Assembly: GCF_009914755.1 (NCBI RefSeq)
Contig: NC_060930.1
Strand: one strand, 5' to 3'
Origin: the human T2T-CHM13v2.0 reference genome, Homo sapiens
Length of the DNA stretch: 64,000 nt
Shown: one piece after another, positions 43,186 through 44,201 of the stretch
How the letters are laid out: the number at the start of each line of letters is the position of its first letter
How positions within the stretch are numbered: position 1 is the first letter of the stretch
Notes under the pieces: generated by a model
Database searches by the model: none
Seen by the model: the letters and a program-made list of their open reading frames with translations, nothing else
What the model was told of the DNA's origin: nothing
Translations under genes and position numbers: made by a program

Positions 43186-43812
43186 TCTCGTGTAAATGGG
43201 TAATGAGTAAAGTGATAGAGTAGGGGTTACTGTATGCCCGAGGAGAGGAGTGAGAAGGAAGCCTGAGGATGGAAAAAAAGGGAGTAAATGAGGTCAGGTT
43301 CACTATGAAAACTCCATAGGAAGAGCAGAGGAGAAGCTATAGCAAAATGTGGCTTTGGGAACGCCTATCATTCTTGGTGCCACCCCAAAATAATGTTGAA
43401 GAGAAATTTTTGAGCTAGGGACTTTGGCTCTGATCTGCCCCACCTCTCTTCTACAGACTAGTGCCTGACCAAATAGTAAAGCTCACAGAAGCTCTTGCTG
43501 CTGGGAACTGTTGCTAGGAAAGCAGCAAGGAGAAGTGGAAAGAGTAAGACACTGGTGCTTACAAGCCAAAAAAAAAAAAAAGTCACCTGGTATCTCGGAA
43601 TCACTGTTGCTTCATAGCACAAGTGGTTAAGATGTGAGTGTCTACTCAGTGCCATTCAACACATCTGATGTTGCCAAATCAAATCAGACTATAGATGGAA
43701 GCCCCTTGGACCTTAAGAGAACCACTGAAATTATTGATTATTCCTGTGGAAAGAGCTGATCCCACTTAAATACTACCCCTTCAAGAGGTATTGTGAAAGA
43801 ACTTCCATAGGT

Positions 43813-43883
43813 GCATGGGTGATTCAGTGGTAGAATTTTCACCTGCCATGCAGGAGGTCCAGGTTCATTTCCTGGCCTATGCA
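43813..43883 (+). pseudogene. tRNA-Gly(GCC) copy, probably a retroposed pseudogene
   Basis: 71 nt GCATGGGTGATTCAGTGGTAGAATTTTCACCTGCCATGCAGGAGGTCCAGGTTCATTTCCTGGCCTATGCA with anticodon GCC at 43845-43847. About 11 substitutions versus canonical Gly-GCC, every CpG lost, B-box altered (GTTCGATTC to GTTCATTTC), no encoded CCA. Confidence 0.92.
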
Positions 43884-43900
43884 ACATGGCATCCCATTTT

Positions 43901-44189
43901 GGCTGGGCGTGGTGGCTCACACCTGTAATCCCAGCACTTTGGGAGGTCGAGGCAGGCAGATCATTTGAGGGCAGGAGTTCGAGATCAGCCTGGCCCACAT
44001 GGTGAAACCCTGTCTCTGCTAAAAATTAGCGGGTCCTGGTGGCACACGCCTATAGTCCCAGCTACTCAGGAGGCTGAGGCGTGAGAATCGCTTGAACCTG
44101 GAAGGCAGAGGTTGCAGTGAGCCGAGATCGCACCACTGCACTCCAGCCTGGAGGACAGAATGAGACTCTGTCTCCAAAAAAACAGAGAA
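43901..44189 (+). mobile_element. AluS fused to the tRNA trailer
   Basis: Starts at Alu nt 1 right after ...cccatttt; followed by aaagaacttcca. Confidence 0.92.
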
Positions 44190-44201
44190 AAAGAACTTCC
44201 A

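What the first reader, a model, noticed from the sequence alone, without database searches (positions are those of the whole stretch)
43796..44201. Chimeric retrocopy: unprocessed pre-tRNA-Gly fused to a full-length Alu inside one TSD
Seen: AAAGAACTTCCA (43796-43807), a 5-nt leader TAGGT, the 71-nt tRNA-Gly(GCC) body without CCA, a 17-nt trailer ending in a Pol III-type TTTT (43884-43900), Alu from nt 1 (43901), an A-rich tail, then AAAGAACTTCCA again (44190-44201). The Alu has no TSD at its own 5' end; the only duplication encloses tRNA plus Alu. Established: L1 machinery makes 5'-small-RNA/3'-retroelement chimeras (U6-L1, U6-Alu) by template switching or RNA ligation, and U6 chimeras typically join at the terminal U-tract. 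Inference: a precursor tRNA and an Alu RNA integrated as one unit, a tRNA-7SL composite-SINE architecture that is rare in humans. The alternative is a Pol III read-through transcript from a tRNA gene with an adjacent Alu. From memory, the trailer resembles that of a genuine Gly-GCC gene (GCACGCCCTCCCATTTT-like); this is unverified.
Basis: partly seen in the sequence, partly recalled or inferred. Interest (0 to 1): 0.85.

Follow-up and report, generated by a model that had tools for sequence, protein, structure and literature searches.

The report
Pre-tRNA-Gly fused to Alu retrocopy
An unprocessed glycine pre-tRNA transcript and a full-length Alu were pasted into chromosome 6 as one piece by the LINE-1 machinery, and at least seven other human loci show the same pre-tRNA-to-Alu join, so this looks like a recurrent by-product of retrotransposition that I could not find described.

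Summary
The layout is 12-bp direct repeat, 5-nt leader, 71-nt tRNA-Gly(GCC) body without CCA, 17-nt trailer ending TTTT, full-length Alu from nt 1, A-rich tail, then the same 12-mer.

New here:
- **Source gene.** Leader, body and trailer match the tRNA-Gly-GCC gene of the 7.4-kb tandem array on contig C1 (160.58-160.74 Mb). Homology stops at the Pol III unit (-8/-6 to T4). No Alu follows the terminator in the 8 of 22 array copies whose flanks I read.
- **A missed third copy.** A third copy of the 12-mer (44508-44519, 1 mismatch) closes a younger AluY-type element (44202-44482) that landed in the 3' repeat.
- **Matching ages.** Non-CpG divergence is 10% for the tRNA unit and 8.9% for the AluS-type partner, against 4.6% for the AluY.
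- **More examples.** Restricted pattern scans found seven more loci where a tRNA trailer T-run abuts Alu nt 1: Lys, Asp (two), Gln, Leu, a 5'-truncated Ile-like one, and an intron-containing Tyr. Four have clear enclosing repeats. The three source genes I read have no adjacent Alu. Control patterns gave no tRNA.

Best reading: one LINE-1-mediated insertion in which reverse transcription of an Alu RNA continued onto the U-tailed 3' end of a nascent pre-tRNA. It is a dead pseudogene, not a SINE. It is a new variant of the known chimeric retrocopies.

The parts
43796..43807 (+). 5' target-site duplication AAAGAACTTCCA. Its last 1-3 bases (CCA) also match the source gene's upstream sequence GCCATCGGT, so the true boundary is ambiguous by up to 3 nt.
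43808..43812 (+). Pre-tRNA 5' leader TAGGT (source TCGGT). With the preceding A it corresponds to ATCGGT of the source gene.
43813..43883 (+). tRNA-Gly(GCC) body, 71 nt, no CCA. It differs at 11 of 71 positions from the C1 array gene, and all its CpGs are decayed. It is a pseudogene.
43884..43900 (+). Pre-tRNA 3' trailer ACATGGCATCCCATTTT ending in the Pol III terminator T4. It matches the source trailer at 13 of 17 positions, and the full T4 is kept.
43901..44175 (+). Full-length AluS-type element starting at Alu nt 1, directly after the T4. It has a 12-nt gap in the middle A-rich linker.
44176..44189 (+). Degenerate A-rich tail of the chimera (AAAAAAACAGAGAA).
44190..44201 (+). 3' target-site duplication of the chimera, AAAGAACTTCCA. 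It also serves as the 5' duplication of the later AluY.
44202..44482 (+). Younger AluY-type element, full length. This is a separate, later insertion and not part of the chimera.
44483..44507 (+). A-tail of the AluY (A20 C A4; the three A's that follow are counted with the next part).
44508..44519 (+). 3' duplication of the AluY, AAAGAATTTCCA (1 mismatch). It is the original downstream copy of the target site.

Best explanation
This is a fossil of one LINE-1 (ORF2p) target-primed reverse transcription event. Judged by divergence, it dates from the period when AluS elements were active.

**Proposed sequence of events.**
1. The bottom strand was nicked at GTG/AAAGAA.
2. The A-tail of an AluS RNA was primed, and the Alu was copied to its very 5' end.
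3. The reverse transcriptase then continued on a second template. That template was a nascent, end-unprocessed pre-tRNA-Gly(GCC) transcribed from the tandem tRNA array on C1. It entered at the 3' U4 tract and was copied to the 5' end of the leader.
4. The cDNA was joined to the target with 1-3 nt of overlap (CCA), which created the 12-bp duplication.
5. An AluY later inserted into the A-tail and 3' duplication, making the third copy of the 12-mer.

**Shown versus inferred.**
- Shown: the anatomy, the source gene, the limits of homology, the absence of an Alu at the source, similar ages of the two halves, and the recurrence of the layout at other loci.
- Inferred: that the join was made by template switching rather than by RNA ligation.
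- Inferred: that a few untemplated A's on the cDNA pair with the terminal U-tract. This would explain both the preference for U-tailed nascent Pol III transcripts and the preserved T4.

The element has no function. The tRNA is degraded, and its own terminator separates it from the Alu, so it could not spread as a composite SINE.

I put about 0.9 on a single chimeric insertion. Given that, I put about 0.65-0.7 on template switching rather than ligation.
For: **One duplication encloses both halves.**
- Exact 12-mers lie at 43796 and 44190. The tRNA trailer T4 abuts Alu nt 1, with no duplication of the Alu's own.

**The source is identified and its homology is bounded.**
- 22 of 38 genome matches lie on C1 at about 7.4-kb spacing and cover query positions 10/11-107, which is leader, body and trailer.
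- 15 of the other 16 matches cover the body only or part of it; the last is the locus itself.
- The body is the GCATGGG...CCCATGCA variant of the C1 and C21 genes. The trailer fits C1 at 13 of 17 positions; by my own count from the sequences it fits C21 at 8 of 17.
- After the T4 the source reads GGTGCTGCAGC, with no Alu, in 8 of 8 copies read.
- No second copy of the junction exists among the 40 scored of 1311 candidates, and the flank is unique.

**The ages agree.**
- tRNA unit non-CpG differences: 8 of 80 (10%).
- Alu1 against an S-type consensus of 39 Alus: 21 of 236 (8.9%). Alu2 against a Y-type consensus of 16: 11 of 237 (4.6%).

**The layout recurs.**
- A pattern of B-box, 10-40 nt, TTT, then Alu nt 1-19 gave 5 hits against 0 for the reversed control. 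4 of the 5 carry a tRNA.
- Two relaxed patterns added Gln-TTG, Tyr-GTA with its intron, Leu-TAA and a 5'-truncated Ile-like copy.
- Enclosing duplications are clear at 5 of the 8 loci, with 0-5 of 300 shuffles reaching the observed match.
- The source genes found for Tyr, Lys and Leu share leader and/or trailer and have no Alu after the T-run.

**Controls.**
- With 1-6 nt between T4 and Alu: 4 hits, 0 of 4 with a tRNA.
- With mature CCA then Alu: 1 hit. It is the same place as one of those four, which has no tRNA.

**Against ligation.**
- RtcB needs a 2',3'-cyclic phosphate and a 5'-OH. A 5' triphosphate strongly reduced ligation (PMC6789731, passages read).
- Here the Alu starts at nt 1, as a primary transcript would.
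Against: - **No empty site.** No orthologous empty site could be examined, so co-arrival of the tRNA and the Alu is inferred from the duplication and from divergence. It was not observed.
- **CpG decay differs.** All 8 CpGs of the tRNA unit are destroyed, while Alu1 keeps 7 of 19 and S-type Alus pooled keep 205 of 730. By my own arithmetic, the chance of 0 of 8 is about 0.07 at the pooled rate and 0.025 at Alu1's rate. This is a weak hint that the tRNA part could be older or was more heavily methylated.
- **The target site is off-consensus.** TG/AAAG differs from the recalled TT/AAAA consensus at two positions.
- **A boundary coincidence is needed.** The AluY duplication ends at the same base (TTCCA) as the first one. 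This is softened by the 3-nt ambiguity at the first junction.
- **Ascertainment bias.** The other seven loci were found with patterns that required Alu nt 1 directly after the T-run. 'Always full-length, always precise' is therefore partly built in, and only the index case is free of this bias.
- **An open mechanistic objection.** Moldovan et al. question how ORF2p would switch onto a poly(U)-ended RNA. Nothing here distinguishes a switch during reverse transcription from a prior RNA-RNA join by an unknown ligase.
- **Source sequence drift.** Divergence is measured against today's source array, whose leader and trailer may themselves have changed.
Confidence: 0.8

Rival explanations
1. RNA ligation came first. 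The pre-tRNA 3' end and the Alu 5' end were joined as RNA, as RtcB does for U6/L1, and the chimeric RNA was then retrotransposed through the Alu A-tail.
For: U6/L1 chimeric RNAs form independently of retrotransposition, and RtcB joins U6 ending in a cyclic phosphate to 5'-OH RNAs (PMC6789731, passages read). The tRNA ligase complex acts on pre-tRNAs in the nucleus. The junction at the end of the U-tract looks like the U6 junction. The same paper notes that ORF2p prefers poly(A), not poly(U).
Against: Nascent pre-tRNAs end in U-OH rather than a cyclic phosphate (established knowledge, recalled). The Alu partner begins at nt 1, where a primary transcript carries a 5' triphosphate. Replacing the 5'-OH by a triphosphate strongly reduced RtcB ligation. 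In U6/L1 chimeras the 3' partner is variably 5'-truncated, which is not the case here.
Confidence: 0.12
2. Pol III read-through. A tRNA-Gly gene with an Alu directly behind its weak T4 terminator produced one long transcript, which was retrotransposed.
For: T4 is a weak terminator (recalled). The Leu-TAA chimera (L057) does show read-through of a first T5 to a second T4.
Against: The only loci sharing both leader and trailer (22 array copies) continue GGTGCTGCAGC after the T4 in all 8 copies read. No other locus carries the trailer-Alu junction. The three other source genes I read (Tyr, Lys, Leu) also lack an Alu after the T-run. An Alu that inserted there would normally leave its own 5' duplication between the T-run and nt 1. 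Eight different tRNA genes would each need such a lost master locus.
Confidence: 0.04
3. Two independent insertions. Either a pre-tRNA retropseudogene landed exactly between the 5' duplication and nt 1 of an existing Alu, or an Alu landed exactly after the T4 of an existing tRNA retrocopy.
For: Tailless pre-tRNA retropseudogenes exist (Schmitz 2004, as cited in PMC4476161), and one is seen at L010. The tRNA unit has lost 8 of 8 CpGs against 12 of 19 lost for Alu1.
Against: Neither half has a duplication of its own. An Alu inserting after the T4 would place its 5' duplication between the T4 and nt 1. Non-CpG divergence of the two halves is alike, 10% and 8.9%. The same zero-spacer junction recurs at 8 loci, while the 1-6 nt spacer control gave 0 of 4 with a tRNA.
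Confidence: 0.03
4. DNA-level copy (segmental duplication or gene conversion) of a tRNA locus.
For: None found.
Against: Homology to the source stops within 8 nt upstream of the tRNA and at the T4. The flank is unique in the genome.
Confidence: 0.01

Closest known systems
U6/L1 and U6/Alu chimeric retrocopies (Buzdin 2002/2003; Garcia-Perez 2007; Doucet 2015 PMC4476161; Moldovan 2019 PMC6789731)
   Same: The 5' partner is a full-length Pol III transcript joined at the end of its terminal U-tract, in sense orientation, to a retroelement that supplies the A-tail. One duplication encloses both halves.
   Different: The 5' partner is a pre-tRNA with leader and trailer. One sibling still carries its intron. 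It is not U6, which has a cyclic phosphate end. The 3' partner is a full-length Alu rather than a 5'-truncated L1. Doucet et al. report only rare U6 or U6atac/Alu cases, which have not been reproduced experimentally (passage read).
tRNA/LINE-1 chimeras (Law & Burns 2026, PMC13174262)
   Same: tRNA-derived sequence arrives together with a LINE-1-mobilised element inside one duplication.
   Different: The 21 reported loci are mostly tRNA halves (nt 1-37), antisense to L1, and attributed to twin priming (passages read). Here the tRNA is a complete precursor, in sense orientation, joined to an Alu. That paper's text has 0 occurrences of 'pre-tRNA', 'trailer' or 'tRNA-Alu'. I did not open its supplementary tables.
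Alu/LINE-1 chimeras (Law & Burns 2026)
   Same: Full-length Alu in sense orientation as one partner of a chimeric insertion. Most date from the AluJ/AluS expansion (section 12 read).
   Different: There the Alu is the 5' partner and L1 carries the tail. Here the Alu is the 3', tail-bearing partner.
Tailless (pre-)tRNA retropseudogenes (Schmitz et al. 2004; known here only through citations in PMC4476161 and PMC2912911)
   Same: Retrocopies of tRNA precursors made by LINE-1 and flanked by duplications. L010 on C10 looks like one.
   Different: Those are 3'-truncated and have no A-tail. Here the precursor is complete to its U4 end and rides on the Alu's tail.
Composite tRNA/7SL SINEs (galago Type II, tree-shrew Tu types, rodent B1-dID; recalled, papers not held)
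   Same: A tRNA-derived head joined to a 7SL-derived body. Template switching has been proposed as the birth mechanism of such SINEs.
   Different: This one is single-copy. It keeps the tRNA's terminator between the halves, so the tRNA promoter cannot transcribe the Alu part. It never amplified.

Membership tests
LINE-1 (TPRT)-mediated retrocopy | Target-site duplication flanking the whole insert | tested here: met
   Exact 12-mer at 43796 and 44190. 1 of 300 shuffles reached the observed match.
LINE-1 (TPRT)-mediated retrocopy | A-rich tail at the 3' end, next to the 3' duplication | tested here: met
   AAAAAAACAGAGAA at 44176-44189. It is short and degenerate.
LINE-1 (TPRT)-mediated retrocopy | Endonuclease-type target site (TT/AAAA; consensus recalled) | tested here: inconclusive
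   The site reads TG/AAAG, with two departures from the consensus. Siblings L056 (TTT/AAAAA) and L038 (ATT/AAAA) fit well.
Chimeric retrogene of the Buzdin / U6-L1 type | The 5' part is a full-length copy of a cellular RNA | tested here: met
   Homology to the source gene runs from -8/-6 to the T4 only.
Chimeric retrogene of the Buzdin / U6-L1 type | The 3' part is a 5'-truncated copy, truncated at a random point (feature list read in PMC2104539) | tested here: not met
   The Alu starts at nt 1.
Chimeric retrogene of the Buzdin / U6-L1 type | Both parts directly joined, in the same orientation, and flanked by direct repeats | tested here: met
   The T4 abuts Alu nt 1 and both lie on the + strand. 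For the repeats.
Functional tRNA gene | Intact cloverleaf and native gene context | tested here: not met
   ARAGORN found none. Rfam marks non-standard pairs in the anticodon stem. 11 of 71 positions differ from the gene. The unit sits inside a duplication.
Composite tRNA/7SL SINE family | Multiple copies derived from one composite master | tested here: not met
   No other locus spans this junction among the 40 scored of 1311 candidates. Siblings carry different tRNAs with their own source genes.
Composite tRNA/7SL SINE family | The tRNA promoter transcribes through the 7SL-derived part | tested here: not met
   The T4 terminator is retained between the halves at 43897-43900. Transcription itself is not testable here.
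Tailless tRNA retropseudogene | 3'-truncated tRNA without an A-rich tail (definition read in PMC2912911) | tested here: not met
   The full trailer is present and an Alu with a tail follows.
Pol III read-through retrocopy | Source locus with an Alu abutting the tRNA terminator | tested here: not met
   8 of 8 array copies read lack it. No second junction was found.

The most novel reading that the evidence does not exclude
Pre-tRNA/Alu chimeras are a recurrent class of human retrocopies that I could not find catalogued. While copying an Alu RNA, ORF2p reaches the Alu 5' end and continues specifically on the U-tailed 3' end of nascent nuclear Pol III transcripts. One such template was a still unspliced pre-tRNA-Tyr. 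With the same search constraints, mature CCA-ended tRNAs were not found. These loci would be frozen snapshots of the step by which composite tRNA/7SL SINEs are born. They would also be evidence that template choice at the switch happens in the nucleus at the integration site.
Probability: 0.5. Interest if true: 0.7.

Novelty: new variant of a known kind. Interest (0 to 1): 0.6.

Why it matters
Chimeric retrocopies are the main natural record of what the LINE-1 reverse transcriptase does when it runs off a template. So far that record is dominated by U6/L1, for which RNA ligation has been shown and template switching is now debated.

A set of chimeras with the following two properties is hard to fit to the RtcB route and would reopen the case for true template switching:
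- The acceptor is an untrimmed pre-tRNA with leader, trailer, full U4 and, in one case, the intron.
- The donor is a full-length Alu starting at nt 1.

Pre-tRNAs are nuclear, so the set would place the event in the nucleus. It would also show that Alu-templated events, and not only L1-templated ones, generate chimeras.

It gives a concrete model for how tRNA-headed composite SINEs arise. It also suggests why most attempts fail: the retained terminator blocks co-transcription of the two halves.

The locus itself is a neutral fossil in an intron of a predicted lncRNA.

Tried and rejected
- **ARAGORN on the window.** It found no tRNA. The Rfam model was needed.
- **A longer duplication.** I considered that TAGG after copy 1 and GAGG after copy 3 extend the duplication into the 'leader'. 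I rejected this because the source gene reads CCATCGGT there, which explains the window's CCATAGGT.
- **Order of events.** I considered that the AluY came first and the chimera second. I rejected this on divergence: 4.6% for the AluY against 8.9% for Alu1 and 10% for the tRNA unit. The one mismatch in copy 3 mildly favours the rejected order.
- **Window-only consensus.** A rough consensus from 14 window Alus inflated divergence. I replaced it with one built from 90 full-length Alus.
- **Paralogous empty site.** The upstream flank is unique in the genome, so no paralogue could serve as an empty site.
- **Decayed array-edge copy as the source.** L015 was rejected because its CpG changes go in different directions from the window's.
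- **Literature.**
  - Buzdin 2003, Schmitz 2004 and Daniels & Deininger 1991 are not held, so I cannot exclude that one of them shows a tRNA/Alu chimera.
  - One search was a badly framed search and gave nothing useful.
  - Six phrasings of 'tRNA-Alu chimera' found 0 papers in the held library.
  - A five-term search with pre-tRNA, Alu, chimeric, target site duplication and template switch listed none that describes them.
- **Control patterns.** The 1-6 nt spacer pattern and the CCA pattern gave only non-tRNA hits.
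Full report
**1. What is in the sequence**

| Coordinates | Feature |
|---|---|
| 43796-43807 | AAAGAACTTCCA |
| 43808-43812 | TAGGT |
| 43813-43883 | 71-nt tRNA-like body |
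| 43884-43900 | ACATGGCATCCCATTTT |
| 43901 onward | Alu, from its first base |
| 44176-44189 | A-rich stretch |
| 44190-44201 | AAAGAACTTCCA again |

- The Rfam tRNA model matches the body end to end at 44.6 bits, against a gathering score of 29. ARAGORN calls nothing in the window, so this is a degraded tRNA.
- The repeat is not chance. With up to one mismatch the 12-mer is expected 0.97 times in the whole window on both strands. The three observed matches all lie within 724 bases, on one strand, at element boundaries.
- It closes a second full-length Alu (44202-44482, with a long A-tail) that begins directly after the middle copy.

**2. Where the tRNA part came from**

The window's own assembly could be searched.

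- The stretch 43796-43905 gave 38 matches. One is the locus itself.
- 22 matches lie on contig C1 between 160.58 and 160.74 Mb at about 7.4-kb spacing. They cover query positions 10/11-107, which is leader, body and trailer.
- The other 15 cover the tRNA body only or part of it.
- At the array the sequence reads ...GCCATCGGT | tRNA | GCACGCCCTCCCATTTT | GGTGCTGCAGC....
- The window differs from it at 16 of 96 positions: 1 in the leader, 11 in the body and 4 in the trailer.
- Homology begins at CCAT, of which CCA overlaps the end of the duplication. It ends at the T4. The next two bases, GG, are shared by the source and by Alu nt 1-2.
- The copied segment is therefore a Pol III transcription unit, running from a start about 6 nt upstream of the tRNA to the terminator. 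It has no CCA and an untrimmed U4. It is a primary transcript.
- The C21 gene shares the body and the leader but not the trailer; by my own count from the sequences it matches at 8 of 17 positions.
- The upstream flank 43560-43807 is unique in the genome, so there is no segmental duplication.

**3. Read-through?**

- I read the flanks of 8 of the 22 array copies. All continue GGTGCTGCAGC after the T4, with no Alu in the next 200 bases.
- A query across the trailer-Alu junction found no other locus that spans it. All other hits begin in the T-run. 40 of 1311 candidates were scored.

**4. Ages and order of events**

- In an alignment of 14 window Alus, Alu1 groups with the AluS-type copies and Alu2 with the AluY-type copies. 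The subfamily names are from my recall of diagnostic blocks.
- I built better consensuses from 90 full-length Alus found in the window and the fetched loci. 39 were classed S-type, 16 Y-type, and 35 were left unclassed and not used.

| Unit | Non-CpG differences | CpGs kept |
|---|---|---|
| Alu1, against the S-type consensus | 21 of 236 (8.9%; S-type median 7.8%) | 7 of 19 |
| Alu2, against the Y-type consensus | 11 of 237 (4.6%; Y-type median 3.4%) | 11 of 22 |
| tRNA unit, against the source gene | 8 of 80 (10%) | 0 of 8 |

- The tRNA and Alu1 are therefore of like age, and the AluY is younger.
- The CpG figure is the one discordant note. By my own arithmetic, the chance of 0 of 8 is about 0.07 at the pooled S-type retention rate of 205 of 730. 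I judge this weak.
- The AluY landed in the A-tail and 3' duplication of the chimera. Its own duplication reads up to AAAAAGAA[C/T]TTCCA.

**5. The same join elsewhere in the genome**

- **First pattern.** A B-box, 10-40 nt, TTT and then Alu nt 1-19 gave 5 hits, with 0 for the reversed control.
  - Hits with a tRNA: this locus, a tRNA-Lys(TTT) locus (L021) and two tRNA-Asp(GTC) loci (L022, L024).
  - The fifth hit (L025) has no tRNA.
- **Two relaxed B-box patterns** gave 23 and 8 hits.
  - Four of the 23 repeat earlier hits. Eight start inside an Alu and hold no tRNA: 0 of 8.
  - Of the remaining 19 scanned, three reach the Rfam tRNA gathering score: Gln(TTG) at L038, Tyr(GTA) at L056 and Leu(TAA) at L057.
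  - A fourth, L059, is a 5'-truncated tRNA fragment with an AAT anticodon loop. Its 71 bases, trailer included, match a tRNA gene 18 kb away at 85%.
- **Notable siblings.**
  - The Tyr copy still holds its 16-nt intron according to ARAGORN.
  - The Leu copy carries a 28-nt trailer that runs through a first T5 to a second T4, exactly as in its source gene on C6.
- **Enclosing duplications** are clear at 5 of the 8 loci:

| Locus | Duplication | Length | Shuffles reaching it (of 300) |
|---|---|---|---|
| window | AAAGAACTTCCA | 12 | 1 |
| L021 | AATACAGGCAGG | 12 | 0 |
| L022 | AAGAGATC[A/G]AGAC | 13 | 2 |
| L056 | AAAAAGCCAGTCC | 13 | 0 |
| L057 | AG[G/A]CAAGAACC | 11 | 5 |

  - At the other three loci they are ambiguous. 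L024 and L059 lie in A-runs, and the best candidate at L038 is not significant.
- **Source genes** with matching leader and/or trailer were found for Tyr (C8, 417 kb away), Lys (C11) and Leu (C6). None has an Alu after its T-run. The Tyr trailer matches only in part.
- **Controls with the same B-box and Alu constraints.**
  - With 1-6 nt between T4 and Alu: 4 hits, 0 of 4 with a tRNA.
  - With mature ...CCA directly before the Alu: 1 hit. It is the same place as one of those four and has no tRNA.
- **Caveats.**
  - The patterns required Alu nt 1 directly after the T-run, so precision of the join at the siblings is built in.
  - The CCA control needs reverse transcription through the whole T-arm. 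Base modifications of mature tRNAs may block this (inference).

**6. Mechanism**

The layout is that of the known chimeric retrocopies. A small Pol III RNA at the 5' end is joined at its U-tract to a tail-bearing retroelement, inside one duplication. Two routes are in print.

- **Template switching during target-primed reverse transcription.** This is the model of Buzdin and of Garcia-Perez, as cited in PMC4476161 (passages read).
- **Ligation of RNAs before reverse transcription.** RtcB needs a 2',3'-cyclic phosphate on the 5' partner and a 5'-OH on the 3' partner. It works poorly on a 5' triphosphate (PMC6789731, passages read).

Here the 5' partner is an untrimmed nascent transcript. The 3' partner begins at Alu nt 1, where a primary transcript carries a triphosphate. 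I therefore favour a switch from the Alu 5' end onto the pre-tRNA 3' end.

My inference, not shown here, is that one to four untemplated A's added to the cDNA can pair with the U-tract. This would explain both the preference for U-tailed nascent transcripts and the intact T4 in the window, Lys and Leu copies, where the source T-run can be compared. Pre-tRNAs, and above all the unspliced Tyr precursor, are nuclear. This places the event at the integration site.

**7. Comparison with what is known, and novelty**

- Law & Burns 2026 (PMC13174262) report tRNA/L1 chimeras as a new type. There are 21 loci, mostly half tRNAs in antisense orientation, attributed to twin priming. They also report 452 Alu/L1 chimeras (passages and section 12 read). 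Their text does not mention pre-tRNA, trailers or tRNA-Alu.
- Doucet 2015 describes U6 or U6atac/Alu chimeras as very rare.
- The Buzdin group's list of chimera partners, as given in PMC2104539, names mRNAs, rRNAs, snRNAs, transposable elements and 7SL RNA. It does not name tRNA.
- Six phrasings of 'tRNA-Alu chimera' found 0 papers in the held library.
- Buzdin 2003, Schmitz 2004 and the supplementary tables of Law & Burns were not seen, so prior description cannot be excluded.
- I file this as a new variant of a known kind.

It is not a composite SINE. It is single-copy, and the tRNA's terminator sits between the halves.

**8. Verdict**

The additions are a named source gene, a later AluY insertion, and seven sibling loci. 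The locus is a neutral fossil. Its interest lies in what the class says about the mechanism of chimera formation.

Noticed in passing
L021 (G000:C1:204738555-204738604), L022 (C5:142925675-142925728, -), L024 (C9:87056138-87056191, -), L038 (C6:146376993-146377050), L056 (C8:66122943-66122995, -), L057 (C11:113572584-113572652, -), L059 (C17:8112224-8112277, -): Seven further loci where a tRNA trailer T-run abuts nt 1 of a full-length Alu: Lys-TTT, Asp-GTC (two), Gln-TTG, Tyr-GTA with its intron, Leu-TAA with a read-through trailer, and a 5'-truncated Ile-like copy. Four have clear enclosing duplications.
   Followed up: partly
L010 = G000:C10:916800-917500: The first 39 nt of tRNA-Gly-GCC with the same TCGGT leader, no A-tail, flanked by a perfect 16-nt direct repeat AAAAGGCTTATAAGCA. 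It looks like a 3'-truncated 'tailless' pre-tRNA retropseudogene from the same or a related source gene.
   Followed up: no
G000:C1:160580344-160743276: 22 matches to the Gly-GCC gene with identical leader and trailer at about 7.4-kb spacing (a tandem tRNA array). The copy at the array edge (L015, 160743179) is CpG-decayed.
   Followed up: partly
window 44190-44519 and L038 (about 340 bases after the Alu start): In two of the eight chimeras a second Alu begins directly after the 3' duplication. In the window it re-duplicates the same 12-mer. This may reflect re-use of an A-rich endonuclease site or may be chance.
   Followed up: no
L056/L062 (C8, 417 kb apart); L059 and C17:8093773 (18 kb apart): Two of the five chimeras with an identified source lie on the same chromosome as their source tRNA gene. 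One is only 18 kb away, inside the C17 tRNA cluster. This hints at insertion near the site of transcription, but the numbers are too small to judge.
   Followed up: no
L062 (G000:C8:66539676-66539779) against L056: The Tyr source gene has a run of about 11 C and ATTA in its trailer that the chimera lacks, so either the source changed later or another Tyr gene was the template.
   Followed up: no
window 43568-43581: An A14 run lies 215 bases upstream of the insertion, with no element attached to it that I recognised.
   Followed up: no
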